This document shows, one piece after another, positions 13,794-61,472 of a DNA stretch of 64,000 bases (position 1 is its first letter; each line of letters starts with the position of its first letter). Both the position numbers and the translations under genes were made by a program. The stretch lies in contig DATKWZ010000030.1 of the NCBI GenBank assembly GCA_035529315.1, positions 67,825-131,824 on the forward strand. Direction: 5' to 3'. The DNA comes from Anaerolineae bacterium (lineage in GTDB: Bacteria > Desulfobacterota > Desulfobacteria > Desulfobacterales > ETH-SRB1). The notes under the pieces are model-generated. The model searched no databases, was not told where the DNA came from, and worked only from the letters and a program-made list of their open reading frames with translations.

Positions 13794-15884
13794 ATGTCAC
13801 AACTGGAAAATATAGAAGCAATAGAGAAAAGACTCTGGAGCGCGGCGGATACGCTCCGGGCAAATTCCAATTATGCAAGCAATGAATATTTTATGCCGGT
13901 AATGGGATTGGTTTTCTTGCGCCATGCCTACAGCCGGTATTTGGCGGTAAAAGATGAAATCATTGCCAGCCTGCCGATGCGCGGGGGCAAAACCCCGGCG
14001 TTGACAAAAAAGGATTTCAGCAAAAAATCCGCTATTTTTCTACAGCCCAAAGCTCAATTTGATTATCTCGTAGCTCTCAAAGACAGCGATGATCGCGCCA
14101 AGGCAGTTATTGATGCAATGGAATCAATTGAAGAAGATTATGACACTCTGCGCGGCGTGTTGCCCAAAAAAGAATATCGTGAATTGGATAATGAAATATT
14201 GGGCCAACTGCTGCGGGGGTTGAATCCTGAAGAACTTAAAAAAGTATCCGGCGATGTATTTGGAAGAATTTATGAATATTTTCTCACACAGTTCGCTGAT
14301 CAAAAAGCGCATGACGGCGGCGAGTTTTTTACGCCGGTATCCTTGGTAGCACTCATTGCCAATGTGCTGGAACCCAAAAAAGGAACAGTGCTGGATATAG
14401 CCTGCGGCAGCGGCGGGATGTTTGTTCAGAGTGCGCGTTTTGTAGAAAATCTGCACGAAAATCCAAACGATAAATTGAGCTTTTATGGTCTGGAGAAAAA
14501 CGCCACCACGATCAACCTGGCAAAAATGAATCTGGCGGTGCATGGCTTGGTGGGTGATATCAAAAAAGCGATTACCTACTATGAAGACCCGCATAATCTG
14601 TATAAGAAAGCCGACTTTTTGATGGCCAATCCGCCGTTTAATGTGGATGAAATTGATGCCGACAAAATCAAAAACGATCCCCGTTTGCCTTTTGGCCTGC
14701 CCGGAGTGAATAAGAAAGGCAAAGTCAGCAACGGCAACTATGTCTGGATCAGTTATTTTTACAGTTACTTGACCGAACAAGGCAGGGCTGGATTTGTAAT
14801 GTCGTCCCAGGCGTCAAGTGCAGGCAACACTGAAGCCAAAGTGCGGGAGAAGCTGATTGAGACCGGTCATGTGGATATCATGATCGCAATCCGATCAGGC
14901 TTTTTTTATACACGTACTGTTCCATGTGAGCTTTGGTTCTTTAATAAATCTAAACCGGAGAATCTAAAAGATAAGGTACTGATGATCGATGCGCGGAATG
15001 TTGCTCGTAAACTAAAGGGAAGCAGGAAAATTTGGGAATTTTCACCGGAGCAATTGCAAAATATTCTTTCCATCGTATGGCTTTATCGGGGTGAGACGAA
15101 GCGTTTTCATCACTTGGTAGTGAATTATATTTCCGCCACGATTAATGAAGCCGTGCAAAGCATCGCTCCGGCACGAGACTATGAAACTATTTTTACCAAA
15201 TTAAATAAAGAGATTCAACCATTTATGGCTACACTTGCTAAAGGCGGGAAACAAGCAGAAACAGTTAAAGAGTTAGCCGACTGTCTGAAAGACTACACCA
15301 GCGGAAGTCAGGCATTTGCCAAGTTGGCGCAAGAAAAAACCGCCTGGTGGAAAAAGCAAAATAAAGACACTATTAAACTTGCCGCAGCGCTCAAAGAATT
15401 GGAACCACTCGCAGAGGAAAACAATAAGCTAATTAAAGAAGCCGAACTGATGTATCGGCTCGCCAACCGTTTGATTGATGTGTGCCTCAATACCCACAAC
15501 TCCAAAGATAGCGACAAGTGGAATACGCGAGAAATTGCCATCCTCAAAAAACAAACCGAAGCGGCGCGCGACACAGCGGTAGAACAACTTAAATTAGCCC
15601 GCTATTTTCATCACCAAGCGCAGTGGCTCATCGAGCGATTCCCGGAAGGAAAACTCCGCGATGTGGAAGGGTTGGTGAAGCTGGTGGATAAAGCCGAACT
15701 GAAAGAAAACGACTGGAGCCTGACCCCGGGCAGGTATGTGGGCGTAGCACCGGAGGAGGAAGACCCGGATTTTGACTTTGGTGAAACCATGCGCACTATT
15801 CATACCGAGCTGGAAGGCCTGAACGCCCAAGCTGTCGATTTAGCAAAAAAAATTAGTGAAAATTTTAAGAAGATAGAGATATGA
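13794..15884 (+). CDS. hsdM: type I restriction-modification system, methyltransferase subunit
   Basis: 696 aa with the AdoMet motif VLDIACGSGGM and catalytic LMANPPFNV. A helical K/E/A-rich segment of about 190 aa precedes the conserved C-terminal ..NDWSLTPGRYVG. Confidence 0.9.
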   Translation: MSQLENIEAIEKRLWSAADTLRANSNYASNEYFMPVMGLVFLRHAYSRYLAVKDEIIASLPMRGGKTPALTKKDFSKKSAIFLQPKAQFDYLVALKDSDDRAKAVIDAMESIEEDYDTLRGVLPKKEYRELDNEILGQLLRGLNPEELKKVSGDVFGRIYEYFLTQFADQKAHDGGEFFTPVSLVALIANVLEPKKGTVLDIACGSGGMFVQSARFVENLHENPNDKLSFYGLEKNATTINLAKMNLAVHGLVGDIKKAITYYEDPHNLYKKADFLMANPPFNVDEIDADKIKNDPRLPFGLPGVNKKGKVSNGNYVWISYFYSYLTEQGRAGFVMSSQASSAGNTEAKVREKLIETGHVDIMIAIRSGFFYTRTVPCELWFFNKSKPENLKDKVLMIDARNVARKLKGSRKIWEFSPEQLQNILSIVWLYRGETKRFHHLVVNYISATINEAVQSIAPARDYETIFTKLNKEIQPFMATLAKGGKQAETVKELADCLKDYTSGSQAFAKLAQEKTAWWKKQNKDTIKLAAALKELEPLAEENNKLIKEAELMYRLANRLIDVCLNTHNSKDSDKWNTREIAILKKQTEAARDTAVEQLKLARYFHHQAQWLIERFPEGKLRDVEGLVKLVDKAELKENDWSLTPGRYVGVAPEEEDPDFDFGETMRTIHTELEGLNAQAVDLAKKISENFKKIEI

Positions 15885-17035
15885 AAACAAGTCAAAAATC
15901 GAAATTAGGTCATATTTGTACAATCAGAACAGGCAAGCTTGATTCTAATGCTGCTGTTGAAGGCGGCAAATACCCTTTTTTTACTTGTGCTCAAGAAACA
16001 TTCAGTATAGATAAATTCGCATTCGATACAGAGGCGGTGTTACTTGGAGGAAACAATGCTAATGGGATATTTCCACTAAAATATTATCAAGGGAAGTTTA
16101 ATGCGTATCAAAGGACTTACATTATAGAATCAAAAGATAGGAATAAAGTATTAAACAAATTTGTTTATTTCTCTCTTCGCCCCGTTTTAGAGTATTTCAA
16201 AAGTGCTTCAATAGGAGCTGCAACGCAGTATTTAACAAAACCGGTGCTGGACAATTTAAAAATTACTTTGCCAGATATTGACACTCAGCGAAGCATTATT
16301 GACATTGTATATGCCTACGACGACCTTATCTACACCAACCGCCGACGGATACAGCTTTTGGAAGAATCGGCGCGGCTATTATTCCGCGAGTGGTTTGTGT
16401 ATTTCCGCTTTCCGGGATATGGAAAAGTAAAGATAGTCGATGGCGTGCCGGATGGGTGGGAGAAAGAAAAGATAAATACCCTCGTTTCTCTTTTGGGAGG
16501 CCATGCATTTAAAGGCACATCATATCAACAAGAGGGTAAGTACGGAATTGTAACTATAAAAAATGTTCAGCAAGGCAGTTTTATTCCTCAATGCACTGAT
16601 TACTTGGACGACACCCCAAATGCAATGAGAAAACATTGTTTTTTATCTAATGGCGATATTTTAATGTCTCTTACGGGCAATGTTGGAAGAGTCTGTTTAG
16701 TATATGGTGAGAACTTTTTACTAAACCAACGCGTAGCAAAAATCGAATCGAAAAACAAATTACCTAAAAGCTATATTTATTGGATGTTTGATAGCCCAAC
16801 AATGCAAAAGAGAATTGAAAATTTATCTTATGGTTCCGCTCAGCAAAATTTGAGCCCCATTAAGCTTGGAGAGCAAAAGGTAATTCTTCCACCCGATCCA
16901 TTGCTTGAGTCGTTTGATGAAATATTTAGTTTGATAAATAGTGAGATAATCCAGCTATTAATTCAAAACCAAAAACTCGCCCAAGCCCGTGATTTGCTTT
17001 TGCCGCGGCTGATGAGCGGCGCGATTGAGGTATGA
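15881..17035 (+). CDS. hsdS: type I restriction-modification system, specificity subunit
   Basis: 384 aa. Two variable halves are separated by the conserved ..LLEESARLLFREWFVYFRFPG.., and the protein ends ..LAQARDLLLPRLMSG. The start overlaps the hsdM stop. Confidence 0.85.
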   Translation: MKTSQKSKLGHICTIRTGKLDSNAAVEGGKYPFFTCAQETFSIDKFAFDTEAVLLGGNNANGIFPLKYYQGKFNAYQRTYIIESKDRNKVLNKFVYFSLRPVLEYFKSASIGAATQYLTKPVLDNLKITLPDIDTQRSIIDIVYAYDDLIYTNRRRIQLLEESARLLFREWFVYFRFPGYGKVKIVDGVPDGWEKEKINTLVSLLGGHAFKGTSYQQEGKYGIVTIKNVQQGSFIPQCTDYLDDTPNAMRKHCFLSNGDILMSLTGNVGRVCLVYGENFLLNQRVAKIESKNKLPKSYIYWMFDSPTMQKRIENLSYGSAQQNLSPIKLGEQKVILPPDPLLESFDEIFSLINSEIIQLLIQNQKLAQARDLLLPRLMSGAIEV

Positions 17036-17085
17036 AATGATGAGCTGTGAACACTTGATATTATTTCTTTATTTTGGGGGAGGGT

Positions 17086-17961: not shown

Positions 17962-17964
17962 GTT

Positions 17965-20900
17965 ATGACCTACTTGAACGAAGATACATTGGTCCAGCAA
18001 ACAACCGTCGATTACTTAAAAGATAAACTCGGTTGGGATTCGGTGTATGCCTATAATCAGGAAACTTTTGGACAGGATGGTCTTTTGGGGAGAAAATCCG
18101 ATCGTGAAGTGGTACTCATACGATATCTCAGGCACGCTCTTAAAGAACTCAATCCAGGACTTCCCGAAACCGCATACGACGAGGCAGTACGACAAGTTGT
18201 AAATTATTCCCAGAGCCAGTCAATGCTCTCTTCCAACTATGATAAATACAAACTGTTCAAAGATGGTGTGCTGGTTTCTTTTCAGGGAGAACATGGCGAG
18301 ATAAAAAAGGAACGGCTCAAGATTTTTGATTTTAATGAAGCGATAAGAAATCACTTTTTGACGGTCCGGGAATTGTGGGTACAGGGTGATTTATATCGAC
18401 GTCGGATTGACATCGTCGGGTTTGTAAACGGCATCCCGTTGTTGTTCGTTGAATGCAAAAACATACATAAAGACCTTAAAAACGCTTACGCAAAAAACTT
18501 TGCCGATTACAAAGACACTATCCCGCATTTTTTTCATCATAATGCTATTATTATGCTGGCAAACGGCGAAAAAGCAAAAATCGGCACTATTACTGCCGGT
18601 TATGAGCATTTTCATGAGTGGAAGCGCTTGTCCGAATCCGACCCGGGCGTGGTGGATATGGAAACACTTTTAAAAGGTGTTTGCGATAAAAAGAATTTCA
18701 TGGATATTTTTGAAAACTTCATCATCTATGACGATTCCACCGGCAGGCAGATAAAAGTTCTGGCGAAAAACCATCAGTATCTTGGCGTGAATCAGGTTAT
18801 CAAAGCCCTTCATGATCCCGGAAGAGTCAAAGGAAAACTCGGCGTTTTCTGGCATACGCAAGGCGCCGGGAAAAGTTATTCGATGGTGTTTTTTACCGCC
18901 AAAGTGCACCGTAAAATCGGCGGTAATTATACATTTTTAATCTGCACAGATCGCGAGGACCTGGATACCCAAATATATAAAACCTTTGCCGGATGTGGTG
19001 TGGCTGATAATGATAAAAATCCTTGCCGCCCCGGTAGTGGTAAACACTTGGCCGAACTGATGACGCAGCACAAAGCCTATCTGTTTACAACAATACAAAA
19101 ATTCAATCAGGATGTAGATCCGGGTGAGGGATATACCAAACGCGATGACATTATTGTAATTACTGACGAAGCGCATCGCACTCAATACGGCGCGTTGGCC
19201 TTGAATATGCGCAATGCTCTGCCGAATGCCAACTTTATCGGATTTACGGGAACACCGCTATTTAAAGACGATCAAATCACCATGCAGGTCTTTGGTGATT
19301 ATGTTTCCACTTACGATTTTCAGCGTGCCGTGGAAGATAAATCTACGGTCCCGCTCTATTATGACTCGCGTGGCGACACCTTGGGTGTAGCCACGAACGA
19401 TATTAATGAGCGCATCGCCGAAAAACTGGAACAGATTGAAATTAATGATATTGATGTAAGTCAGAGGCTGCAAAAAGAACTCAAGCGTGATTACCATATC
19501 ATTACGGCGAAAAAGAGGCTCAATCAAATCGCCAGGGATTTTGTCTATCACTACACCACTTCCTGGGAAGCAGGCAAGGCGATGTTTATATGCATCGATA
19601 AATTAACCTGTGTGCGGATGTATGAATTGATAAGGCAATACTGGGATCAGAAAGAAGAGGAAATAGAAGAATCCTGGAAAATGGCCGCAGGGGAAGAAAA
19701 GGATTATCTTTCCAATCAGCTCATCTGGATGAAAGAGACAAAGATGGCGGTGATTGTGAGTGAAGAGCAAGGCGAGGTCGACAAGTTCAAAAAATGGGGT
19801 TTTGATATCATATCTCATCGGCGGCTTATTAAAAATGGCTTTGAACTTTCCGATGGAAAACGAATTGATGTGGATTCCGCTTTTAAGAAAGAAGAACATC
19901 CATTTAGAATCGCGATAGTCTGCGCTATGTGGTTAACCGGGTTTGATGTGCCGAGTCTGGCAAACCTTTATTTGGACAAACCGCTCAAAGCCCATACGCT
20001 GATGCAGGCGATTGCCCGTGCCAACAGGGTAAACGGCGATAAAAATAACGGCCTTATTATTGATTATTGCGGTATCCTCAAAAATTTACGCAAAGCTCTC
20101 GCTACTTTCACCGGTACAGGCGATACCGGCAGACCCGGTGGATTGGGGCCGGATGAACTGGATCCAACCAGAACTAAAGAAGAATTACTCGAAGGATTAA
20201 AACAAGCGATTGGCCTGGTAAGCGATTTTCTTAATGAGCGAAAAGCGCCTCTTGATGCAATCATCAACGCGAGCGGTTTTGAGAGAAACAAGGCGATTGT
20301 CGCGGCTAAAGAAGCGGTGAACGAAAATGATGAAACCAGAAAGAAGTTTGAGGTAATGTGCCGCGAAGTGTTTATTAAATTTAAAGCGTGCCTGACAATT
20401 CCTGGTGTAAATACTTATCGCAACCAATACAGCGCAATAAATATCATCTACAAAAGCCTGCAAAAAGACCGAGATAAAGCGGATATCAGCGATATCATTA
20501 AACAGCTTCATGAAGTTATCGATGAGTCGATAACCGTTACACCCGACAGAGGCAAAGAACCCAACAAGGCTTATGATATCAGCAAAGTTGACTTTAACCG
20601 GTTGCGGGCGGAATTTGAACACGCTAAAACAAAAAACACCACTGTTCAAAGCCTGAAAAGCGTGATTGAGAAAAAACTGGCACGGCTCATCCAAAGAAAT
20701 CCGCTCCGGACAGATTTTCAGGAACATTATGAAAAGATAATCAATGAGTACAATAAAGAAAAAGACCGCCAGAATATTGAGGCCACCTTTGAGGCATTGT
20801 TGAAATTTGTGCAAGAGTTGGACGAGGAAGAAAGCCGAGCAGTGCGAGAGGGATTGAATGAGGAGACGCTGGCTATATATGACCTTTTGATAAAAACAGA

Positions 20901-21183
20901 TTTGAAATCTCAGGAAATCCAAAAGATAAAGAAGGTAGCCAAAGAACTGCTAAAAACACTGAAAGCAAAATTGAAGTATCTGTATAGGTGGCAAGACAAG
21001 GAGCCTACAAGAGATGATGTGAAAGTATTAATACGAAATTTCTTATGGGATGAAGCTGGCGGTTTGCCTGTGGCGTTTTATACTCAAAACGATGTATATA
21101 AAAAGGCCGAAGATGTTTATTATCATGTCTATCGGGCATATCCGACTGTCCCATCGCCATATTATGCAAGCGCGGGTAATTGA
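17965..21183 (+). CDS. hsdR: type I restriction enzyme, endonuclease/helicase subunit
   Basis: 1072 aa with helicase motif I WHTQGAGKS, the DEAH box VITDEAHRTQYG and motif VI QAIARANR. Confidence 0.9.
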   Translation: MTYLNEDTLVQQTTVDYLKDKLGWDSVYAYNQETFGQDGLLGRKSDREVVLIRYLRHALKELNPGLPETAYDEAVRQVVNYSQSQSMLSSNYDKYKLFKDGVLVSFQGEHGEIKKERLKIFDFNEAIRNHFLTVRELWVQGDLYRRRIDIVGFVNGIPLLFVECKNIHKDLKNAYAKNFADYKDTIPHFFHHNAIIMLANGEKAKIGTITAGYEHFHEWKRLSESDPGVVDMETLLKGVCDKKNFMDIFENFIIYDDSTGRQIKVLAKNHQYLGVNQVIKALHDPGRVKGKLGVFWHTQGAGKSYSMVFFTAKVHRKIGGNYTFLICTDREDLDTQIYKTFAGCGVADNDKNPCRPGSGKHLAELMTQHKAYLFTTIQKFNQDVDPGEGYTKRDDIIVITDEAHRTQYGALALNMRNALPNANFIGFTGTPLFKDDQITMQVFGDYVSTYDFQRAVEDKSTVPLYYDSRGDTLGVATNDINERIAEKLEQIEINDIDVSQRLQKELKRDYHIITAKKRLNQIARDFVYHYTTSWEAGKAMFICIDKLTCVRMYELIRQYWDQKEEEIEESWKMAAGEEKDYLSNQLIWMKETKMAVIVSEEQGEVDKFKKWGFDIISHRRLIKNGFELSDGKRIDVDSAFKKEEHPFRIAIVCAMWLTGFDVPSLANLYLDKPLKAHTLMQAIARANRVNGDKNNGLIIDYCGILKNLRKALATFTGTGDTGRPGGLGPDELDPTRTKEELLEGLKQAIGLVSDFLNERKAPLDAIINASGFERNKAIVAAKEAVNENDETRKKFEVMCREVFIKFKACLTIPGVNTYRNQYSAINIIYKSLQKDRDKADISDIIKQLHEVIDESITVTPDRGKEPNKAYDISKVDFNRLRAEFEHAKTKNTTVQSLKSVIEKKLARLIQRNPLRTDFQEHYEKIINEYNKEKDRQNIEATFEALLKFVQELDEEESRAVREGLNEETLAIYDLLIKTDLKSQEIQKIKKVAKELLKTLKAKLKYLYRWQDKEPTRDDVKVLIRNFLWDEAGGLPVAFYTQNDVYKKAEDVYYHVYRAYPTVPSPYYASAGN

Positions 21184-38836: not shown

Positions 38837-39868
38837 TTATCCACCAATTGCCGACATTTGCCCTGCAACTTCGCCGGGGTGATCACAGGCAATGTTGTGA
38901 TCAAATGGTTTGTGGCTTACAGCTTGTAGAAAAATATCGGCCAGACTGCTGTCAAGATATCCTTTTCTGAGAGGACCTTTAAGATCATCTTGATAATCTG
39001 ACAAAAGACATGCTCGCAGCTGGCCGCTTGCCGTTAATCTCAACCGATTGCATTGATTGCAGAAATGGCGGCTTATTGCATCAATAAAACCTATTTCCCC
39101 TTTTGCGTCTTTAAACTTATAACGCCTTGCAGGGCCGTCATTGATTCCATTTTTAACAGGAATCAATTCCCCTAATTCATTGATGCGTTTTTTTATTTCA
39201 GGAGCAAGCAATTGCTTGCCGATATTCTTAATATGAGGAATTCCTATTGGCATGTACTCGATGAATCGAATATGAAATGGATAAGAAAAGGATAATTTAG
39301 CGATATCTGTTAATTCATCATCATTGATTCCATTTAGGGCTACGACATTAATTTTTATAGGATTAAAACCCTCTCTTTGCGCTGATTCTATACCTTCCCA
39401 GACCTGATCAAACATGTCGTGCCCTGTTATCTCTTTATATTTTTGTCTGTTTAATGTATCCATGCTGACATTGATTCGTTTTATGCCGGCAGATTTAATT
39501 TTTTTAATATTATCTCTCAGCAAAATACCGTTGGTTGTTAGAGACACATCCGCAAGGCCATTTATCTTAGTTAATTCGCCCAGGAAATCGTAAACCCCTT
39601 TTCGTATAAGCGGTTCTCCACCGGTAATTCGGACCTTGGATATCCCCAGCCGCGCCCCGATTCTGACAAGACGCAGTATTTCTTCATATCTTAAAATTTC
39701 TTTATACGGAAGGAGCTGATGCAGATCATCAGGAGCGCAGTATATGCATCGCAGGTTGCAACGGTCGGTAATAGATATGCGCAAATAGTTCAAGCATCGA
39801 TTATATTTATCGATTAAGTGTAAGTTTGGCAATTTTATTATCCTGTTATCGATATACGCCATTACCAT
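38837..39868 (-). CDS. moaA: GTP 3',8-cyclase
   Basis: 343 aa with the radical-SAM motif CNLRCIYC and a C-terminal second cluster CNQCNRLRLTASGQLRAC. It ends 44 nt before the fdhA start. Confidence 0.9.
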   Translation of the reverse strand: MVMAYIDNRIIKLPNLHLIDKYNRCLNYLRISITDRCNLRCIYCAPDDLHQLLPYKEILRYEEILRLVRIGARLGISKVRITGGEPLIRKGVYDFLGELTKINGLADVSLTTNGILLRDNIKKIKSAGIKRINVSMDTLNRQKYKEITGHDMFDQVWEGIESAQREGFNPIKINVVALNGINDDELTDIAKLSFSYPFHIRFIEYMPIGIPHIKNIGKQLLAPEIKKRINELGELIPVKNGINDGPARRYKFKDAKGEIGFIDAISRHFCNQCNRLRLTASGQLRACLLSDYQDDLKGPLRKGYLDSSLADIFLQAVSHKPFDHNIACDHPGEVAGQMSAIGG

Positions 39869-39892: not shown

Positions 39893-40040
39893 AAAAAAAC
39901 GCCTCTGGTATCTTTCTACCAAAGGCGTTTTTTTTTACATCATATCGTACCTTTGGTAACCCGACAATCATGACCTTGCGGCTGTAGACTCGTGGTTTTG
40001 CGCCAATGTCTTTCGACATAGTTGCCTTTTTCTGTACGTT
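39893..40040 (-). promoter_or_regulatory. candidate Moco/Tuco riboswitch with terminator expression platform in the moaA leader
   Basis: On the minus-strand RNA there are two GNRA-capped hairpins (AUGUC-GAAA-GACAU at 40006-40019, and GCC-GCAA-GG at 39973-39983). CACGAGUC and GGGUUACCAAAGG resemble remembered Moco-motif blocks. A 12-bp hairpin ACGCCUUUGGUA/UACCAGAGGCGU plus U8 (39891-39936) follows, ending 23 nt before the moaA ATG. Confidence 0.4.
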
Positions 40041-56091: not shown

Positions 56092-57190
56092 AAATTTTGG
56101 AAATTTTTGGGAAATTTTGGGGTCACATCTTGATTAACTCACTTATTCTGCCATATTCCTTTTTAAAGGTTTTATCGACACGAAGTTTTTCTCTGAAAAT
56201 AGCAACTCGCCTGCTAACGGATGAGTACGACAGACCGAACAGTCCTGATATCTTCTGGTTTGTAAAACGTCCTGTTTGCCACAAAAAATATATCATCAAA
56301 TCTCTGGCCACCTTATCTTTTTCCGGTATCCTTAAAGATTCTCTGAATGATTCAAGATCACATTCTAAAGCATCGGATAAGCCTCGCAGTAGTTTTTCAG
56401 GCTCATGCTTCTTAAGCAGCATTATCTGTTGAGGCAGTTCCGGGTGGGCTTTTCTTTTAAAATCAGGCAAAAATCCGGATTTCAGTCTATCGGCAAATCC
56501 GGCTGTCCCAAAAAATAAACCATAGCGCAGCTCTTCAAACAGAGATGCTTCCTCTTTTGAATATCTCTGAACCTTTTTACGATAGGCTAATTGCGGATTA
56601 TCTGTACCGAGCTGCGACAGAACGGTATCTGTTTTCAACCATTCGGGATACTTTCTGTTATAGGCATATACCGGATAACTGCTCCACTTATAATTAATAA
56701 GCCGTTTAACGATACCGGCTCTTAATGGATTGCGATGAATATAACATGACAAACGAACAAGGTAAGCATCATTTTCTACGATAAGACTTTTAAACCTGCC
56801 CTGAAACAGATGACCACTGCGGGCATGGCGGTTATTAAAACGTCTTGTATAAGTGACTCCCAGCCACTGCATTGCCTTTGAAAGGTTGGGATTGTTTGTT
56901 CGAAGAAGAATATGGTAATGGTTGTCCATTAATACATAGGCAAAAATATTCACATCAAAGCGATCTGACATTTCACCCATAATGCGAATAAAACAATTCC
57001 GGTCCTCATCGTCCCCAAATATATCCTGCTGTTCGTTCCCCCGTGAAAGAACGTGATACAGAGCACCTTTAAATTCAATTCTCCATGATCTCGACATGTT
57101 TTTTAAATAGCATCTACGTAAACAGATGTCAAACTAATGCGCTAATCAAGATGTGACACCAAAGCTTCCACCAAAGCTTCCAAAGCTTTT
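56092..57190 (-). mobile_element. IS-like unit: Y1 transposase gene bounded by inverted repeats
   Basis: GTCACATCTTGATTA (56122-56136) is the exact reverse complement of TAATCAAGATGTGAC (57143-57157). Both are flanked outward by three tandem ~10-nt units ending in TTTGG (AAATTTTGG AAATTTTTGG GAAATTTTGG on one side, and the reverse complement AAGCTTTGG AAGCTTTGG TGGAAGCTTTGG on the other). Confidence 0.55.
56123..57097 (-). CDS. IS200/RAYT-like Y1 (HUH) transposase with C-terminal DnaA-C-like HTH
   Basis: 324 aa with the HUH motif MDNHYHILL and the catalytic-Tyr context RLSCYIHRNP. The C-terminus ..ARDLMIYFLWQTGRFTNQKISGLFGLSYSSVSRRV is HTH-like. Confidence 0.75.
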   Translation of the reverse strand: MSRSWRIEFKGALYHVLSRGNEQQDIFGDDEDRNCFIRIMGEMSDRFDVNIFAYVLMDNHYHILLRTNNPNLSKAMQWLGVTYTRRFNNRHARSGHLFQGRFKSLIVENDAYLVRLSCYIHRNPLRAGIVKRLINYKWSSYPVYAYNRKYPEWLKTDTVLSQLGTDNPQLAYRKKVQRYSKEEASLFEELRYGLFFGTAGFADRLKSGFLPDFKRKAHPELPQQIMLLKKHEPEKLLRGLSDALECDLESFRESLRIPEKDKVARDLMIYFLWQTGRFTNQKISGLFGLSYSSVSRRVAIFREKLRVDKTFKKEYGRISELIKM

Positions 57191-57204: not shown

Positions 57205-58902
57205 TTACTTCTCGCCGGCGAATACCCCCCACGCGCCGAAATCCGAAGTGTCAGAAACGACAGTCCATGCGCCGGCCTGCTCGGCTGCGCCGGGTCCGAA
57301 ATGGGCCCCATTAACGTCCCAATCGGAAACAGCGCCTCCATCAACCCTGAATGTTCCCCCTGAAATGATAAACTGGCCGCTGCTGTCAACAGTGGAACTT
57401 CCCGCCTGGACAAAGCCCACCGTATGACCGCCCCCGGAGGCATTGAGGTTAAAGTCCTGGATGGAGGAGGACCCGAAATTAACACTTGAACTGTAGGTTC
57501 CTTCCATGTCCGCATTGCTGGGATAATAGGTCCCGCGGACCACACCGCTGTAAGTATAGTCACCCGAAAGAGCGGCCAGTTGGCCGATCTTTGTGGGATA
57601 GCCCTCGACAAACCAGAACTTGTTGATAAGTTCGTAAACAGTGCCCCCGATGTTGAGTTCAGGCAGGGTTTTCGCCGAGTGGTAGCCCCACTGGAGGTAG
57701 TTGTAATGTCCGAGATATGTTCTCAGGCCCTCAATGTTTAGGGGGTCGGAACTTGAACCAGGGGGATCCAGGTAGACCTCCCCCCGGGCATCCACTTCAT
57801 CGCCGTTGCTCACCTCGTCGGCTAAATAATAGTTGCTGGGATTGACCGCGCCGTATGCATAGACGTCGTCCATAGGGTCGGTATGCTGGAGAGAATTGCT
57901 GGCAAAGGCGTCCCTAACCTCTCCGTTGTTGTACTTGAGAAAGGCCGAAAAATAACCATGCTTTTTTTCTTCCGTTTTTGTCCCGGTTTCGAGGCTGGTG
58001 AAATCGGTCAGGTTCTCGGCGTTATCGGCGCCCGATCGCAAGGTCGTTTCCTCTCCGGTGTCCATTACGAGTTCTTCTCCTTCAGCCTTCACGCCTTCCC
58101 CGATCTTTTCTCCTTCCTGCCTCATCCTGGCGGCGTATTGGATATCGGCCATGACGGTAGGATCATACTTTTTCACGTTGTCAATGGTATTGAACGTCTC
58201 ACCGGGATTGAGGAGAATTCCGTTGACGTCGACCTGGCCGTCGCCGTTGGCCACCACGGTTACAGGCCGACCATTTTCTCTTGGCTGGGCCTTCGCCATA
58301 TAGGTGCTCAGAGCGTTCCCGCTGTCAGCCCTCTTCTCCGGTTCCAGATAATAGACATGGGCGCCGAACTTGGTTCCACTTACACCTACGACGGCCGTGG
58401 GGGTCTTGAGGTTGAACCGGGTGTCCTTGTAAAGGAATAGTCGCATGGAGTAAAACATGGCCTTGCCCTTGACCATGCTGAAAAGGGACCTCTTTTTCCC
58501 CTCTTTTCTTTGATTCACGTATTCTTCCACGGCAAACCTTGAATCCTGGGCCATGGTGACCACATCGTCGTTGGAAAACCGGATGCGACAACGAGAATCG
58601 GCCAGGGTACTGAGGCCGTCGTTTTCAAAGACGGCGTCCCCCGATCTTCCGAAATAGGCCTCCCTGGTGGCCCTGTGGATCACGACGACCGTGCCGTTGA
58701 GATCGTGGATGACACCGACCAGCTTGTTGGAGGAGGGTATAAAAGAGTCCTTGATCTCCATACCCTTCAATGCCCCTGGAAGGTCCTGGTCCGGCACGGC
58801 GGCGCCCCGATTGACCCGGGCGCCCAGGTCCATCGCTGTCAGGGCGAAACAAAGGATCAAGAAACACCACAAGCCCGGCAAGCCTATCTTAAACTTTTTC
58901 AT
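57205..58902 (-). CDS. exported protein: FecR-type domain + C-terminal TbpB/fHbp/hemophilin-like beta-barrel (putative Slam cargo)
   Basis: The start is at ATG 58902 (MKKFKIGLPGLWCFLILCFALTAMDLGA), with GGAGG 7 nt upstream. The FecR-like block is ..CRIRFSNDDVVTMAQDSRF..LKTPTAVVGVSGTKFGAHV. The C-terminus is ..YSGVVRGTYY..VNFGSSSIQDFNLNA..GAHFGPGAAEQAGAW..GAWGVFAGEK. Confidence 0.6.
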   Translation of the reverse strand: MKKFKIGLPGLWCFLILCFALTAMDLGARVNRGAAVPDQDLPGALKGMEIKDSFIPSSNKLVGVIHDLNGTVVVIHRATREAYFGRSGDAVFENDGLSTLADSRCRIRFSNDDVVTMAQDSRFAVEEYVNQRKEGKKRSLFSMVKGKAMFYSMRLFLYKDTRFNLKTPTAVVGVSGTKFGAHVYYLEPEKRADSGNALSTYMAKAQPRENGRPVTVVANGDGQVDVNGILLNPGETFNTIDNVKKYDPTVMADIQYAARMRQEGEKIGEGVKAEGEELVMDTGEETTLRSGADNAENLTDFTSLETGTKTEEKKHGYFSAFLKYNNGEVRDAFASNSLQHTDPMDDVYAYGAVNPSNYYLADEVSNGDEVDARGEVYLDPPGSSSDPLNIEGLRTYLGHYNYLQWGYHSAKTLPELNIGGTVYELINKFWFVEGYPTKIGQLAALSGDYTYSGVVRGTYYPSNADMEGTYSSSVNFGSSSIQDFNLNASGGGHTVGFVQAGSSTVDSSGQFIISGGTFRVDGGAVSDWDVNGAHFGPGAAEQAGAWTVVSDTSDFGAWGVFAGEK

Positions 58903-58972
58903 TGCACTTCCTCCTCTTTTTGCAAAAAGCGGACGGCCTCGGAGACCCGGCCGTAGACATGGACCTGATAGA

Positions 58973-60430
58973 TTAGAACTTGACGCCCACATTAAAGCCA
59001 TAGATGTCCTTCTTGAAATCATAGAGTTCCGTGTTGGAATTGTTGTTGATCAGGTTGTAGGAGATCGAAGCGAAATAGCGATTGGAGAAATTTCTGCTGA
59101 ACACCACGTAGAAATTGTGCCTCTTGTCGGTCCTGAAATAGGCATCGGGCCACAGAAAGGCGGACGTCGCATATTCCCTTCTCGTATATTTATACCGGGT
59201 ATAGATTTCCAGATCCCAGTTCCACCAGTTCAACCGCTTGAAATAGGAAACCGCCAGATTGTTGGCATCGTAGGAAAACCTTTTGTTTTTGGCATTGAGG
59301 TTTTCGTCGGAGATGTAGAAGGAAAGGATGTCCTTGCGGTTGTTGAGGTAGAAGTTGGGGTTGATTTCCCAGATCCGGTTGATGTTGTTCTGACCGCTCT
59401 TGTCATCCGGAGGAGACGAGGGATCATAGGTGTCCCGTAAATAGGAGAACATGCCCCTGAGGCTGAATCCGGGGGTAAAAAAGTATTCGTAACTCGGGCT
59501 CAGGTCAAAGGTGTCATAAAGATGGTCATGTTCATAGATGTTTTTCGCATAGCCGACAGGCAATTTGAGTACGCTCTTGCTGCTTACCAGCCAGGGTCCG
59601 GTTGTCAACCGCAACTGGGTGAAATCAAAGTTGTGATATTGGTCTACGTGGGTCTGGTAAAAGGATCCGGTCGTGTTCCACATCCAGCCCCTTTTTTCTC
59701 CCGCGTCATAAAGTGCGTTTCCCGCCAGGCTGATGACGCCCACCCAGTCCCTCAAGGACCTTTGGGTGTTGCTCAGGACAATCGTTCCGCCTTCGGGGAC
59801 ATCAATGAACTCCAGATCGGGGCCGGAACTGACATTGCTGTCACTCTGGACCCCCAGGGAGATCCTTGCGTTGACAAAGAGCCTTTTGGTCTTTTCATCA
59901 ATGGCCGCCAAGAGCCTTTTGATGTTGCTTTGCACAGTCTCGAGGGGTTTGGCCTCGAGAACGGCGTTTAGCTCCTTGCGGGCTTCGTCGTACTTTCCCA
60001 TCTCGAAGTATACGGTACCAAGTTCCAGCCGCACCCTGTGGAGGTCGGGTTCGATAGCCAGCATGTCCCTGAACTTGGTAATGGCCAGATCCTTTTCGCC
60101 CGCCTTTGCGGCACAGGACGCAAACCAGAACATGACGTCCATGGTCTCCACCTGATCCGATATCTCCCTGAAGATGGGAAGGGCCCTTGCGTATTCCCTG
60201 TCATAGAGGAGGGTCAGGGCCTGAGCCAGCTTCTTGTCGAGGTCCTCCACTTCCTGCGGAGACATCTTTTTCAGTTTTTCCAGTGCCCCCTTGTCGAAGG
60301 CTTCCGTCTGGGGGCTCTTTACCAGCATACCACCTGTGTCCCCCTGGGCAAAGGCGAGGGTGGACAGAAAGGTGAGTATGACGATGGGAATAAACATGAT
60401 AGCCGCTTTGGGTAGATAAAATATCTTCAT
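58973..60430 (-). CDS. Slam-like outer-membrane translocator (TPR N-domain + DUF560-type beta-barrel)
   Basis: 485 aa with a signal peptide ..LSTLAFAQGD. TPR-like helices are present (YDREYARALPIFREI, VYFEMGKYDEARKELNAVLEAKP). About 300 aa rich in beta-strands follow (RISLGVQSDSNVSSG.. to ..NNNSNTELYDFKKDIYGFNVGVKF), with a terminal Phe. Confidence 0.6.
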   Translation of the reverse strand: MKIFYLPKAAIMFIPIVILTFLSTLAFAQGDTGGMLVKSPQTEAFDKGALEKLKKMSPQEVEDLDKKLAQALTLLYDREYARALPIFREISDQVETMDVMFWFASCAAKAGEKDLAITKFRDMLAIEPDLHRVRLELGTVYFEMGKYDEARKELNAVLEAKPLETVQSNIKRLLAAIDEKTKRLFVNARISLGVQSDSNVSSGPDLEFIDVPEGGTIVLSNTQRSLRDWVGVISLAGNALYDAGEKRGWMWNTTGSFYQTHVDQYHNFDFTQLRLTTGPWLVSSKSVLKLPVGYAKNIYEHDHLYDTFDLSPSYEYFFTPGFSLRGMFSYLRDTYDPSSPPDDKSGQNNINRIWEINPNFYLNNRKDILSFYISDENLNAKNKRFSYDANNLAVSYFKRLNWWNWDLEIYTRYKYTRREYATSAFLWPDAYFRTDKRHNFYVVFSRNFSNRYFASISYNLINNNSNTELYDFKKDIYGFNVGVKF

Positions 60431-60749
60431 GTGTCCTCTACAACAGGCGTGTTCAGTCTTTTTCGAGTTATTTTAAAATGTTGTGATAGCATCAGGCGGC
60501 GTTCTGATTTTTTCTATTCCATTAATACATTTAATTCCTTCGATTACCGCTGCCAACCTCAAGGTTTTTACAAACTTCTGGTGGATATTTTTTTGTCCAT
60601 TTTTTCAAAGGAAGATAGAATTAATGCAATGATTAAAATTGTTTTAATAATTATACATTGAACCATTTAATTGTAAGGCAATGAATCAATGATATCAGCT
60701 ATTGGTCGCTTATTTCTTGATTTTAATCACTTATTAATATTTTATTTTT

Positions 60750-60950
60750 GGAATGCTTCTCAGTTTATGAGTTTGTATCGCAGGAAGATAGCAGCTGAGT
60801 TCTTTTTTAGTTCGAGTTTCAGGTCCAAGGCTGTGAAGCAAAAAACCCCACACTTCATGTGACTGAAGAAATGGGGCTTTATTTTTTTGTAATCCAGTTA
60901 TTGTTCACTTGTTCCTCCTCTTTGAGGTTCAAAAAACAGACCAAAATAAA
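60750..60950 (-). repeat. repeat module A (copy 2, inverted)
   Basis: Its reverse complement aligns with 11160-11366. It contains GAGGAGG, a 9-codon ORF (60879-60908) and the hairpin at 60836-60885. Confidence 0.8.
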
Positions 60951-61013
60951 TTCAAGATACTATATATTAATTGAATAAACAAGTAAATAACTATCTTTTA
61001 ACCTAAAAAAACT

Positions 61014-61168
61014 GGGTCAAGTATGTCTTTGACCCTTATTAATACTTTTCTGTATTTCTTCTATCTGTCTTTTATTTTTCTGTCGTATTTTTTAAGCTTT
61101 TAAACTCTTCTGTTATTAAGGTTTTTGCCTAGTATTGTCTTCCATGAGTCAAAGGCAGACTTGCCCCC
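61014..61168. repeat. MITE-like element, family 2 (module B, copy 2, inverted)
   Basis: The ends are GGGTCAAGTATGTCTTTGACCC (61014-61035) and GAGTCAAAGGCAGACTTGCCCCC (61146-61168). The interior matches the reverse complement of 12892-13002. Confidence 0.75.
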
Positions 61169-61220
61169 ATTTGTTCCTCATTTTGACCTTCAAATATCAG
61201 TCTTCCTTTCCTGTGGCTAA

Positions 61221-61274
61221 CTATTGTATTAAGCAGAAAAAATCTGCATATTAACACTATATATTTTCTTTATA
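61221..61274 (-). repeat. repeat module C (copy 2, inverted), ending in G|TTAGCC (61215-61221)
   Basis: Its reverse complement reads TATAAAGAAAATATATAGTGTTAATATGCAGATTTTTTCTGCTTAATACAATA-GTTAGCC. Confidence 0.7.
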
Positions 61275-61407
61275 AGAGGAATATATTATGGGATATAAGA
61301 GAAAGCATGTAAAGAATCGGATATTGAGATGCTAAGAGACCGGGGGCGTTTTCGAAAGTCTCGCTAAAAGACTTTACAACAGCCTGGTCTTGAATTATAA
61401 AATATAA

Positions 61408-61452
61408 GGTAACAGTTCGCGGTTTACAGTTGTCGGTTCACGGTTTAAAAAG
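61408..61452. repeat. GTTCACGGTT-type repeat
   Basis: GGTAACAGTTCGCGGTTTACAGTTGTCGGTTCACGGTTTAAAAAG. Confidence 0.6.
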
Positions 61453-61472
61453 ATTAAACAGGATAAACAAAA

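What the first reader, a model, noticed from the sequence alone, without database searches (positions are those of the whole stretch)
57205..60430. Slam-like (TPR + DUF560-type barrel) translocator with an adjacent FecR-domain / TbpB-like-barrel cargo: a type XI secretion pair in an unexpected host
The translocator gene, 58973..60430 (minus strand), encodes 485 aa. It has a signal peptide, TPR-like helices, and then a long Y/N/D-rich beta region ending ..YGFNVGVKF. This is the size and layout I remember for Neisseria Slam/DUF560.

Seventy nt downstream on the same strand is the cargo gene, 57205..58902. It encodes a 565-aa exported protein.
- Its last ~110 aa (..VNFGSSSIQDFNLNA..GAHFGPGAAEQAGAW..GAWGVFAGEK) follow the 8-strand barrel pattern shared by TbpB, fHbp, HpuA and hemophilin. 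That pattern is the known Slam-cargo signature.
- Its N-terminal third is a FecR-type domain.

I am not aware of a FecR-domain Slam cargo. Characterised systems come from host-associated Beta/Gammaproteobacteria, not a sulfate-reducer-like genome.
Basis: partly seen in the sequence, partly recalled or inferred. Interest (0 to 1): 0.7.

Follow-up and report, generated by a model that had tools for sequence, protein, structure and literature searches.

The report
Slam-type secretion pair in Desulfobacterales
Two adjacent genes in a sulfate-reducer-type (Desulfobacterales) genome encode an outer-membrane translocator of the Slam/type XI secretion family and its partner protein, whose TbpB-like tail marks it as cargo but whose FecR-type head has not been described for this secretion system, and the same pair recurs in about 70 related species.

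Summary
Gene 58973..60430(-) encodes a signal peptide, TPR helices and a 14-strand barrel (AlphaFold pLDDT 90). Gene 57205..58902(-), 70 nt downstream, encodes a Sec-exported, non-lipidated protein. It has a FecR domain, an acidic linker, then a TbpB-like handle and barrel.

Neither protein hits PF04575 or PF01298 on its own. At family level, 23/40 translocator homologs hit PF04575 and 40/40 hit TPR_Slam. The cargo profile hits NHBA (1.8e-8) and TbpB (1.3e-7). Foldseek returns TbpB, NHBA, hemophilins and fHbp.

In 80 species-level Desulfobacterota genomes, 71 of 73 testable loci have such a partner directly downstream, and 69 carry FecR. The host is therefore not unexpected. DUF560 proteins of Deltaproteobacteria were already catalogued (SSN cluster 7, uncharacterised), but I found no description of their cargo.

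New findings:
- Lobe number varies from 0 to 6.
- Rare relatives carry CHAP, M23 or CsgG-like heads instead of FecR.
- Close relatives have a third, OmpA-like peptidoglycan-binding component, separate or fused to the cargo N-terminus. The window copy has lost it.
- The window copy is a horizontally acquired island (GC3 0.67-0.70 versus 0.29-0.48).

Whether the FecR head is exported or stays periplasmic is unresolved. This is a new variant of a known kind.

The parts
58973..60430 (-). Gene for the Slam/T11SS-family outer-membrane protein (485 aa)
   Evidence: ORF. TPR_Slam 35.6 bits. 40/40 homologs hit TPR_Slam and 23/40 hit PF04575. AF2 pLDDT 90.1.
60347..60430 (-). Signal peptide of the OMP (aa 1-28, ..LAFA|QG)
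   Evidence: Read from the sequence. Helix 8-26 with low pLDDT in the model.
59888..60313 (-). Periplasmic TPR domain (aa 40-181, about 8 helices)
   Evidence: Pfam TPR families and TPR_Slam aa 63-153. AF2 helices 40-181. Most conserved part of the OMP, mean pairwise identity 0.59.
58976..59881 (-). DUF560-type beta-barrel (aa 184-485), 14 long strands by my count of the DSSP string
   Evidence: AF2. Best barrel fold matches are 14-strand OmpG (TMt 0.71), CymA and FadL. PF04575 covers the equivalent region end to end in homologs: P0055 189-475, 29.9 bits; P0099 185-470, 55.1 bits; cut-off 22.
60434..60438 (-). Shine-Dalgarno-like GAGGA before the OMP start
   Evidence: Sequence.
58903..58972 (-). 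70-nt spacer between the two genes, with GGAGG at 58910-58914 and no terminator-like site, so probably one operon
57205..58902 (-). Gene for the partner/cargo protein (565 aa)
   Evidence: ORF. 164 homologs. Alignment A2. AF2 pLDDT 79.
58819..58902 (-). Sec-type signal peptide of the cargo (aa 1-28); no conserved lipobox
   Evidence: Alignment A2: no conserved Cys, family cleavage motif A|Q.
58117..58818 (-). Conserved N-motif (RG..VP...LP..L....IKD.F.PS) plus FecR-type beta module (aa 29-262). Pfam FecR core is aa 97-182 = 58357-58614.
   Evidence: PF04773 1.5e-10, 40/40 homologs. Fold match to FecR-type anti-sigma periplasmic domain 4m0n, TMt 0.51. Most conserved module, 0.54 mean pairwise identity.
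58372..58377 (-). Invariant Gly176-Thr177 in GV[RS]GTKFG, a candidate FecR-type self-cleavage site
   Evidence: Invariant in 40/40. Maps to about Pfam FecR positions 73/74, against about 75/76 for the self-cleaving G181-T182 of E. coli FecR. Direct alignment was not significant.
57970..58116 (-). Acidic/Gly-rich disordered linker (aa 263-311)
   Evidence: pLDDT <50 for aa 263-311. Variable in length and sequence.
57583..57969 (-). Handle ('pedestal') beta domain (aa 312-440)
   Evidence: Family profile aligns to TbpB C-lobe handle plus barrel (profile 412-583 to TbpB 341-512). AF2 strands 314-434.
57208..57582 (-). C-terminal TbpB/NHBA/fHbp-type beta-barrel (aa 441-565), ending GVFAGEK
   Evidence: NHBA 1.8e-8 and TbpB 1.3e-7 with the family profile. 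PF01298 in 9/40 homologs. Foldseek NHBA TMt 0.68-0.73 at 26% identity, plus TbpB, hemophilins and fHbp.
60431..61472 (.). AT-rich (GC 0.29-0.34) non-coding stretch upstream of the operon; presumed promoter/regulatory region and island boundary
   Evidence: Promoter-like hits are not above chance. No Rfam family at gathering threshold.
56123..57097 (-). Flanking Y1 (IS200/REP-type) tyrosine-transposase-like gene at the other island boundary
   Evidence: PF01797 Y1_Tnp. GC3 0.375, host-like.

Best explanation
This is a two-gene type XI secretion (Slam/DUF560-family) module of a Desulfobacterales bacterium.

Both proteins are exported to the periplasm by Sec. The first inserts in the outer membrane as a 14-strand barrel with a periplasmic TPR domain. 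It recognises the partner through the partner's C-terminal TbpB-like handle and barrel lobe and moves that lobe, C-terminus first, to the cell surface, as Slam does for TbpB, fHbp and hemophilin. The partner is not lipidated, so it is either released or held by protein contacts.

Its N-terminal FecR-type domain is the family-specific 'head'. By analogy with all characterised cargo I take it to be exported with the rest, but only by a narrow margin (see the first rival). Its ligand is unknown.

The window's copy was acquired horizontally from a GC-rich relative. In the process it lost the OmpA-like peptidoglycan-binding gene that sits between the two genes in its closest relatives.

Shown here: domain content, homology, predicted folds, conserved gene pairing, modularity of the lobe, and the transfer and deletion.
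Inferred: translocation itself, its direction, the final location of each domain, and the function.

My confidence that this is a T11SS-family OMP with its dedicated partner is about 0.85. My confidence in the whole statement, including full export, is given below.
For: OMP:
- TPR_Slam is above its cut-off.
- 40/40 homologs hit TPR_Slam and 23/40 hit PF04575, best 8.5e-16. PF04575 covers the barrel end to end in P0055 and P0099 (58% and 44% identical in A1).
- The AF2 model (pLDDT 90) shows a signal peptide, TPR helices and a 14-strand barrel. Fold matches are BcsC-type TPR+barrel proteins and 14-strand OmpG/CymA/FadL.

Partner:
- FecR 1.5e-10.
- The family profile hits the NHBA barrel at 1.8e-8 and TbpB C-lobe handle plus barrel at 1.3e-7. 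PF01298 is found in 9/40 homologs.
- Foldseek top hits are TbpB, NHBA, HphA/Hpl hemophilins and fHbp. TbpB, fHbp and hemophilins are verified T11SS cargo classes (PMC12282271).

Linkage and modularity:
- 71/73 species-level loci have a partner directly downstream on the same strand, within otherwise different neighbourhoods.
- The same lobe type carries CHAP, Peptidase_M23 or TPR+CsgG-like heads in rare relatives, and is repeated 2, 3 or 6 times in others. This fits the published effector-pedestal-barrel layout of cargo.

Horizontal transfer:
- GC3 is 0.70/0.67 for the pair against 0.29-0.48 for neighbours, while donor-like loci have GC3 0.69-0.85 throughout.
- blastn shows 79-82% nucleotide identity to L091, with the OmpA-like gene segment missing.
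Against: - The window proteins themselves do not reach PF04575 or PF01298.
- No Slam structure appeared among the top 50 PDB fold matches, so the barrel could not be compared with one.
- No TonB-dependent receptor, ECF sigma factor or other clue to a ligand lies in any neighbourhood examined.
- Against full export: close relatives encode a soluble OmpA-type peptidoglycan-binding protein between the two genes, or fuse it to the partner's N-terminus. About five species have complete FecR-only partners without any barrel. FecR is the most conserved module (0.54 against 0.25-0.37), unlike the variable effector heads of known cargo.
Confidence: 0.5

Rival explanations
1. Threaded, envelope-spanning complex. 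Only the C-terminal lobe(s) reach the surface. The FecR head folds in the periplasm, where it binds the TPR domain of the OMP and/or the OmpA-like peptidoglycan anchor. The acidic linker stays in the lumen of the 14-strand barrel. The system would then couple a surface-exposed TbpB-like binding module to the periplasm or cell wall, as a tether or sensor, rather than secreting a protein.
For: - An OmpA-type peptidoglycan-binding domain (60.9 bits; NRRSE[LVI]H motif) followed by a Pro/Lys-rich spacer is fused in front of FecR in P0158, P0188, P0195, L022, L025, L027 and L029. It is a separate Sec-exported gene between OMP and partner in 12 of the surveyed loci (12 of the 22 loci L008-L029) and in L005, L089, L090 and L091. 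Such a domain has to be periplasmic.
- Complete FecR-only partners exist next to the OMP.
- The FecR core and the OMP's TPR domain are the most conserved parts of their proteins (0.54 and 0.59).
- Most alternative heads (CHAP, M23, CsgG-like, TPR) are domains typical of the periplasm or cell wall.
- FecR domains are periplasmic in their native anti-sigma context (PMC8144685).
Against: - Every characterised type XI cargo is fully surface-exposed or released (PMC8406197, PMC12282271).
- CHAP and M23 are also classic secreted bacteriolytic enzymes.
- The Pro/Lys spacer, rather than the acidic linker, could be the segment that crosses the membrane.
- The window's own copy has no OmpA-like component.
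- No structural or co-evolution test of a TPR-FecR contact could be run.
Confidence: 0.35
2. Hemophore/TbpB-like nutrient capture. The partner is secreted, binds a metal, heme or another scarce nutrient, and hands it to a TonB-dependent receptor, as hemophilin and TbpB do.
For: The fold and profile similarity of the lobe is to TbpB and hemophilins. In Proteobacteria, hemophilin loci often co-occur with FecR regulator genes (bioRxiv 10.1101/2023.03.15.532718).
Against: - No TonB-dependent receptor, heme oxygenase or ECF sigma gene is present in any of the neighbourhoods read.
- The lobe aligns best to the ligand-free C-lobe/NHBA-type barrel, not to a heme-binding handle.
- Ligand residues were not assessed.
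Confidence: 0.1
3. A cell-surface-signalling FecR anti-sigma factor that merely lies next to an unrelated TPR porin.
For: The PF04773 hit. Public records name the protein 'FecR family protein'.
Against: - The protein has a cleavable signal peptide in place of the cytoplasmic anti-sigma domain (DUF4880) and transmembrane helix, and lacks FecR_C. E. coli FecR has all three.
- No ECF sigma factor or TonB-dependent transducer gene is nearby.
- The pairing with the OMP is conserved in 71/73 loci.
Confidence: 0.02

Closest known systems
Slam1/Slam2 of Neisseria and other type XI secretion OMPs (NilB, HrpB, Hsf); Pfam PF24575 TPR_Slam + PF04575 SlipAM/DUF560
   Same: The architecture is the same: signal peptide, periplasmic TPR domain and a predicted 14-strand barrel of about 480 aa. 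The gene is adjacent to one whose product ends in a TbpB-type barrel. Homologs match both Pfam models.
   Different: - It is very divergent: the window protein itself misses PF04575.
- It comes from free-living anaerobic Desulfobacterota, not animal-associated Beta/Gammaproteobacteria.
- It probably corresponds to the small, uncharacterised SSN cluster 7 of Grossman 2021, not cluster 1. I could not test this assignment.
- No TonB-dependent receptor lies in the locus.
- Close relatives have an extra OmpA-like component.
Soluble type XI cargo: hemophilin (Hpl/HphA) and HrpC
   Same: Both are Sec-exported and non-lipidated, with a C-terminal 8-strand barrel preceded by a beta 'handle'. Foldseek hits 8glo, 8gmm, 7re4 and 6om5.
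   Different: The partner here has an additional 230-aa FecR-type N-terminal module and a roughly 50-aa disordered acidic linker. Relatives carry 0-6 lobes. There is no evidence of heme binding or of a cognate receptor.
NHBA (GNA2132) and the TbpB C-lobe
   Same: These are the best sequence and fold matches to the last 125 aa: profile E 1.8e-8 and 1.3e-7, TMt 0.68-0.73, and the same G-x-F-x-G-x-[KR] C-terminus.
   Different: NHBA and TbpB are lipoproteins of host-restricted pathogens with host-protein ligands. Here there is no lipobox and no host.
[quoted passage not shown]
   Same: They share the central FecR beta domain, including an invariant Gly-Thr at about the position of the self-cleavage site.
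   Different: There is no cytoplasmic anti-sigma domain, no transmembrane helix, no FecR_C domain, and no sigma factor or transducer partner. The domain is fused to a secretion-type lobe instead.
Multi-TbpBBD 'Sphingomonas/Psychrobacter surface proteins' predicted as cargo in PMC12282271
   Same: Relatives of the window protein also repeat the handle-barrel pair (2, 3 or 6 times).
   Different: The N-terminal region differs (FecR here, Pro-Thr repeats there), as does the OMP cluster.

Membership tests
Type XI secretion / Slam OMP (PF24575 + PF04575) | N-terminal periplasmic TPR domain matching TPR_Slam | tested here: met
   35.6 bits against a cut-off of 35.2 for the window protein. 40/40 homologs match, best 5.5e-12. 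AF2 helices span aa 40-181.
Type XI secretion / Slam OMP (PF24575 + PF04575) | Direct match of the window protein to the DUF560/SlipAM barrel profile PF04575 | tested here: not met
   No PF04575 hit even at E<=1. I read this as a sensitivity failure; see the next row.
Type XI secretion / Slam OMP (PF24575 + PF04575) | Homology of the barrel to DUF560, tested through full-length homologs | tested here: met
   23/40 homologs (42-76% identical over the full length) hit PF04575, best 8.5e-16. P0055 (E 2e-174 to the window protein) scores 29.9 bits over aa 189-475 = profile 3-278/288. P0099 scores 55.1 bits. The cut-off is 22.
Type XI secretion / Slam OMP (PF24575 + PF04575) | 14-stranded outer-membrane barrel | tested here: met
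   AF2 model at pLDDT 90.1: 12 unbroken long strands plus two kinked ones between aa 184 and 484. The best barrel superpositions are 14-strand OmpG, CymA and FadL. This is a prediction only; no Slam structure appeared among the PDB matches.
Type XI secretion / Slam OMP (PF24575 + PF04575) | Adjacent gene for a protein with a C-terminal TbpBBD-type barrel | tested here: met
   In the window the partner is 70 nt downstream. 71/73 species-level loci show the same arrangement.
Type XI secretion / Slam OMP (PF24575 + PF04575) | OMP-dependent surface exposure or release of the partner | not testable with these tools
   This needs a co-expression and shaving or secretion assay.
Type XI cargo (C-terminal TbpBBD / lipoprotein C barrel) | Sec or lipoprotein signal peptide | tested here: met
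   A Sec-type signal peptide with no conserved lipobox Cys across 40 sequences.
Type XI cargo (C-terminal TbpBBD / lipoprotein C barrel) | C-terminal 8-strand barrel homologous to PF01298/PF08794 | tested here: met
   - The window protein alone gives no Pfam hit, but phmmer finds NHBA at 0.0045.
- The family profile finds NHBA at 1.8e-8 and TbpB at 1.3e-7.
- 9/40 homologs hit PF01298, and 23/84 further relatives do, best 2.6e-18.
- Foldseek gives NHBA at TMt 0.68-0.73.
Type XI cargo (C-terminal TbpBBD / lipoprotein C barrel) | Beta 'handle/pedestal' preceding the barrel | tested here: met
   The profile aligns across TbpB C-lobe handle plus barrel. AF2 strands span aa 314-434. Foldseek alignments of more than 200 columns to hemophilins and the TbpB C-lobe.
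Type XI cargo (C-terminal TbpBBD / lipoprotein C barrel) | N-terminal domain of one of the roughly ten described cargo architectures | tested here: not met
   PMC12282271 lists hemophilin-like 1/2, TbpB-like, fHbp-like, LbpB-like, disordered N-terminus 1/2, Pls-like, Sphingomonas and Psychrobacter types. 'FecR' occurs 0 times in that paper. This makes it a new architecture, not a non-member.
FecR-type anti-sigma factor (cell-surface signalling) | PF04773 FecR domain | tested here: met
   1.5e-10, aa 97-182.
FecR-type anti-sigma factor (cell-surface signalling) | Cytoplasmic anti-sigma N-domain (DUF4880), a transmembrane helix and FecR_C | tested here: not met
   E. coli FecR shows DUF4880, FecR and FecR_C. 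The window protein and two homologs show FecR only.
FecR-type anti-sigma factor (cell-surface signalling) | Neighbouring ECF sigma factor and TonB-dependent transducer | tested here: not met
   None is present in the window locus or in seven homologous loci read with Pfam annotation.

The most novel reading that the evidence does not exclude
The partner is not a secreted cargo but a protein that stays threaded through its type XI translocon. The TbpB-like lobes sit on the cell surface. The FecR head sits in the periplasm, docked to the translocon's TPR domain and, in the full three-gene form, tied to peptidoglycan by an OmpA-like protein. This would be a new class of envelope-spanning tether or sensor built on a secretion system. 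Relatives would use the same device to place CHAP/M23 cell-wall hydrolases or CsgG-like modules.
Probability: 0.3. Interest if true: 0.85.

Novelty: new variant of a known kind. Interest (0 to 1): 0.6.

Why it matters
Experimental knowledge of type XI secretion comes from seven animal-associated systems in one sequence cluster. When a second (marine) cluster was analysed, the C-terminal-barrel rule for cargo largely failed (PMC12282271).

This locus and about 70 relatives show that a third, very divergent, free-living anaerobic clade does keep the barrel rule. That clade attaches the barrel to heads not reported so far: FecR in most cases, and CHAP, M23 or CsgG-like in rare ones. It also has variable lobe numbers and an OmpA-like peptidoglycan-binding third component.

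This offers a clean natural test of two questions. What does the translocon recognise? Is every 'cargo' fully exported? It also gives a functional lead for hundreds of proteins annotated only as 'FecR family' or 'tetratricopeptide repeat protein' in Desulfobacterota.

Tried and rejected
- Direct Pfam and NCBIfam scans of the two window proteins found no DUF560 or TbpB hit. I replaced them with family-level tests.
- I looked for a solved Slam structure by sequence profile and by fold. The profile search hit only TPR proteins, and the top 50 fold matches were generic barrels.
- Promoter and terminator consensus scans of 56.9-61.6 kb gave counts equal to the shuffled expectation, so no signal can be claimed.
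- An Rfam gathering scan found nothing in the 1-kb upstream gap.
- I tried to show that the invariant Gly176-Thr177 is homologous to the self-cleavage Gly181-Thr182 of E. coli FecR. hmmsearch and hhalign against E. coli FecR were not significant. Pfam profile coordinates agree only to within about 2 positions. I keep this as a hypothesis only.
- A FecR anti-sigma factor reading is rejected on domain content and context.
- A hemophore reading has no receptor or heme genes nearby. I keep it at low probability.
- An 'Anaerolineae' host, the public label of the identical MAG proteins, is rejected. PheT is 87-88% identical to Desulfobacterales MAGs and the window encodes Lnt.
- The first Pfam census of 126 lobe relatives exceeded the residue limit. 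I repeated it on 84.

Full report

Yes. The ORF list shows 58973..60430(-), 485 aa, and a second minus-strand ORF ending at 57205.

The mechanical ORF for the second gene begins at 59022, but the ATG at 58902 is the real start. It is preceded by GGAGG at a 7-nt spacing. All 39 aligned homologs begin there. It opens a Sec signal peptide. The gap to the first gene is exactly 70 nt and holds no terminator-like site, so the two genes probably form one operon.

The first protein has a signal peptide (..LAFA|QG), TPR hits (TPR_19 5e-10) and a TPR_Slam hit that just clears Pfam's cut-off (35.6 against 35.2 bits). The second has a FecR hit at 1.5e-10, aa 97-182. Neither protein hits PF04575 (DUF560/SlipAM) or PF01298 (TbpB_B_D) directly.

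**2. The translocator**

A homolog search returned 153 relatives, nearly all about 475-490 aa, from Deltaproteobacteria/Thermodesulfobacteriota MAGs. In an alignment of 40 of them (A1; 42-76% identical to the window protein), all 40 hit TPR_Slam and 23 hit PF04575, best 8.5e-16.

PF04575 covers the barrel from end to end in these relatives. P0055 (E 2e-174 to the window protein) matches over aa 189-475 = profile 3-278 of 288 at 29.9 bits. P0099 scores 55.1 bits. The cut-off is 22. The miss for the window protein is therefore a sensitivity problem, not absence of homology.

AlphaFold2 on A1 gave a confident model, pLDDT 90.1. It shows a signal helix, about eight TPR helices (aa 40-181) and a barrel (aa 184-484). 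I count twelve unbroken long strands plus two kinked ones, 14 in total. That is the number predicted for Slam (PMC5449769).

No Slam structure appeared among the top 50 PDB fold matches. Foldseek returns TPR-plus-barrel exporters (BcsC, PelBC) and 14-strand barrels (OmpG TMt 0.71, CymA, FadL).

**3. The partner**

The 164 homologs share one architecture (A2):
- a Sec signal peptide with no conserved lipobox Cys;
- a conserved N-motif (RG..VP...LP..L....IKD.F.PS);
- a strongly conserved FecR module;
- an acidic/Gly-rich disordered linker;
- a variable beta 'handle';
- a C-terminal barrel ending G-[VI]-F-x-G-x-[KR].

FecR is found in 40/40 and PF01298 in 9/40. A profile of A2 hits the NHBA C-domain at 1.8e-8. 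It also hits TbpB at 1.3e-7, across the whole C-lobe handle plus barrel.

The AF2 model (pLDDT 79, with confident modules and disordered stretches at 189-208 and 263-311) was searched against the PDB. Top hits were TbpB, NHBA (TMt 0.68-0.73, 26% identity), the HphA/Hpl hemophilins and fHbp. The N-terminal module hit a FecR-type anti-sigma periplasmic domain (4m0n, TMt 0.51). TbpB, fHbp and the hemophilins are experimentally verified type XI cargo classes (PMC12282271).

The protein is not an anti-sigma factor. E. coli FecR shows DUF4880, FecR and FecR_C, while the window protein shows FecR only. No ECF sigma factor or TonB-dependent transducer gene is nearby.

**4. Is the pairing more than chance?**

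A scan of one genome per species found 80 loci, labelled Desulfobacterales, Desulfobacteraceae, Desulfatiglandales, Syntrophales/Syntrophaceae, Desulfatibacillaceae, Desulfobacterium sp. N47, an Olavius symbiont and one Geobacteraceae, or unresolved Deltaproteobacteria/Proteobacteria/Pseudomonadota MAGs. I cut module HMMs from A2 and searched all ORFs in these loci.

Of 73 loci with at least 300 bp downstream of the OMP gene:
- 71 have a partner-like gene directly downstream on the same strand;
- 69 of those partners carry the FecR module.

Among complete ORFs:

| Partner type | Loci |
|---|---|
| FecR + 1 lobe | 37 |
| FecR + 2 lobes | 8 |
| FecR + 3 lobes | 1 |
| FecR + 6 lobes (1959 and 1973 aa) | 2 |
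| FecR only | 8 |
| Lobes without FecR | 2 |

Of the eight FecR-only cases, about five are genuine complete ORFs (signal peptide, FecR, acidic tail) and the rest are split genes. One of the two FecR-less partners has a CHAP domain instead.

The surrounding genes differ between lineages. None of the eight neighbourhoods read with Pfam annotation contains a TonB-dependent receptor.

**5. A third component, and the origin of the window's copy**

In the closest relatives, a small Sec-exported OmpA-family protein (161-190 aa) is encoded between the OMP and the partner. These include P0002 (76% identical, L091), L089, L090 and L005. An HMM of it finds a separate gene at that position in 12 of the surveyed loci. 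In at least four more the same domain is fused to the N-terminus of the partner.

The fusions read: signal peptide, OmpA domain (60.9 bits, with the NRRSE[LVI]H motif), a Pro/Lys-rich spacer, then N-motif, FecR, handle and barrel. That is a Rosetta-stone link between a peptidoglycan-binding protein and the partner's head.

The window has no such gene anywhere in its 64 kb. blastn against L091 shows 79% nucleotide identity over the OMP gene and 82% over the start of the partner gene. The 539-bp OmpA-like segment of L091 is replaced by 25 nt in the window.

The window's two genes have GC3 of 0.70 and 0.67, against 0.29-0.48 for all neighbouring genes. The boundaries are sharp: a 1-kb AT-rich non-coding stretch on one side and a Y1 transposase-like gene on the other. 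In L091, L089 and L005 the system and its neighbours all have GC3 of 0.69-0.85.

The window copy is therefore a horizontally acquired, OmpA-less derivative of a system that is native, at a conserved position (fabH-like, aminotransferase, about 340 aa protein, OMP, OmpA-like, partner, rarA, dnaE), in GC-rich Desulfobacterales. Both ORFs are intact, and the identical locus occurs in several independent assemblies.

**6. The host**

Public records label the identical proteins 'Anaerolineae bacterium'. However, PheT from the window is 87-88% identical to Desulfobacterales MAGs and 70% identical to Desulfobacteraceae Eth-SRB2. The window also encodes Lnt and a Sec-interrupted FdhN-type formate dehydrogenase. 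The host is a Desulfobacterales bacterium.

**7. How modular is the lobe?**

An exhaustive phmmer search of 1.84 billion cluster representatives with the lobe alone (aa 313-565) found only 143 at E<=1e-3, so this is a small family.

Among 84 further representatives with intact N-termini:
- 44 carry FecR;
- 23 hit PF01298 (best 2.6e-18);
- others carry Peptidase_M23, CHAP, TPR+CsgG-like or CBM_5_12 heads behind Sec signal peptides.

The handle-barrel pair is thus a portable C-terminal module. That is what a secretion or targeting domain should look like, and it matches the published effector-pedestal-barrel scheme.

**8. Mechanism**

The best-supported reading is a type XI module. The OMP recognises the C-terminal lobe of the Sec-exported partner and moves it to the surface.

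What is shown is homology, predicted fold, conserved linkage and modularity. Translocation itself is inferred.

The open point is the fate of the FecR head. Precedent favours full export, since all seven characterised cargoes are fully surface-exposed or released. Several observations fit better with a head that stays in the periplasm while only the lobes are exposed:
- the OmpA-like peptidoglycan-binding component, separate or fused in front of FecR;
- the FecR-only partners;
- conservation: FecR is the most conserved module (0.54 mean pairwise identity against 0.25 for the handle and 0.37 for the barrel), and the TPR domain is the most conserved part of the OMP (0.59 against 0.47);
- the periplasm-typical nature of most alternative heads.

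My estimates are about 0.5 for classical export, about 0.3-0.35 for the threaded model, and the rest for other outcomes.

One further hypothesis: the invariant Gly176-Thr177 in GV[RS]GTKFG lies within about 2 Pfam profile positions of the self-cleaving Gly181-Thr182 of E. coli FecR. A direct alignment was not significant.

**9. Comparison with what is known, and novelty**

- Slam-related sequences were reported in all proteobacterial clades in 2017.
- The 2021 DUF560 similarity network lists a 35-sequence deltaproteobacterial cluster 7 (Dole_1853, Syntrophorhabdus, Ca. Magnetomorum). It falls among the nine clusters with 'no characterized proteins'.
- Cargo prediction has been done only for clusters 1 and 3, giving about ten architectures. 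None has FecR, and in cluster 3 the barrel rule largely failed.
- FecR appears in that literature only as a neighbouring regulator gene.
- No paper in the library contains both DUF560 and FecR.

So the translocator family in this host is catalogued but unstudied. I found no published description of the FecR-lobe partner, its lobe-number variation, the alternative heads or the OmpA-like third component.

This is a new variant of a known kind. It is well supported as a system and of moderate to high interest to the field. It would be considerably more interesting if the threaded topology proves true.

Noticed in passing
window 39952-40036 (-): A c-di-GMP-I riboswitch (Rfam RF01051, 70.2 bits, E 1e-11) lies directly upstream of the 343-aa ORF 38837..39868(-). 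The regulated gene was not identified.
   Followed up: no
L091 9498-10049; L089 11496-12026; L090 11451-12023; L005 11509-11994; 12 of loci L009-L026: A small Sec-exported OmpA-family peptidoglycan-binding protein is encoded between the Slam-like OMP and the FecR partner in the closest relatives. In L022, L025, L027, L029 and in P0158/P0188/P0195 it is fused to the partner's N-terminus through a Pro/Lys-rich spacer. It is absent from the window.
   Followed up: yes
L023 4003-9924; L074 9339-15218; L058 9456-13007: Giant partners carry one FecR head followed by six (1973 and 1959 aa) or three (1183 aa) tandem handle-barrel lobes.
   Followed up: partly
L059 9487-11256; P0447, P0412, P0456, P0405, P0429, P0439, P0401: The same handle-barrel lobe carries CHAP, Peptidase_M23 or TPR+CsgG-like N-terminal domains instead of FecR. 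The L059 CHAP variant sits next to a Slam-like OMP gene. The contexts of the others were not checked.
   Followed up: partly
L006 11445-12488; L008 6258-7274; L016 10139-11131; L070 9398-10423; L068 9441-10433: These are complete FecR-only partners (signal peptide, FecR module, acidic tail, no barrel) directly downstream of a Slam-like OMP gene. It is unexplained how these would be handled if the barrel is the targeting signal.
   Followed up: partly
L090 6506-9847 and 10001-13887: The whole system is duplicated in tandem: two OMP genes, each followed by a FecR partner. Only the second pair has an OmpA-like gene. Several other loci have a second FecR-lobe paralog nearby (L009, L014, L034, L037, L044, L056).
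   Followed up: no
window 57205-60430 against its flanks: The public MAG carrying identical proteins is labelled 'Anaerolineae bacterium', but PheT (41150-43567) is 87-88% identical to Desulfobacterales MAGs. This is a probable mislabel of the public bin.
   Followed up: yes
window 56123-57097 (-): A 324-aa Y1 (IS200/REP-type) tyrosine-transposase-like gene lies 107 nt downstream of the partner's stop, with host-like codon usage (GC3 0.375). A short direct repeat (agctttgg, 3 copies) lies in the gap at about 57160-57190.
   Followed up: no
window 13794-21183 (+): A type I restriction-modification system is present: hsdM-like 13794..15884, a 384-aa ORF 15881..17035 (untested, possibly the specificity subunit), and hsdR 17965..21183.
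   Followed up: no
window 35712-38162 (-): A formate dehydrogenase-N alpha subunit ORF matches the family profile only from position 212 onward. This is consistent with an in-frame selenocysteine TGA splitting the gene.
   Followed up: no
window 58372-58377 (-): Gly176-Thr177 is invariant in the FecR module of all 40 aligned partners, at about the position of the self-cleavage site of E. coli FecR. Autoproteolysis is possible but homology of the site was not proven.
   Followed up: partly
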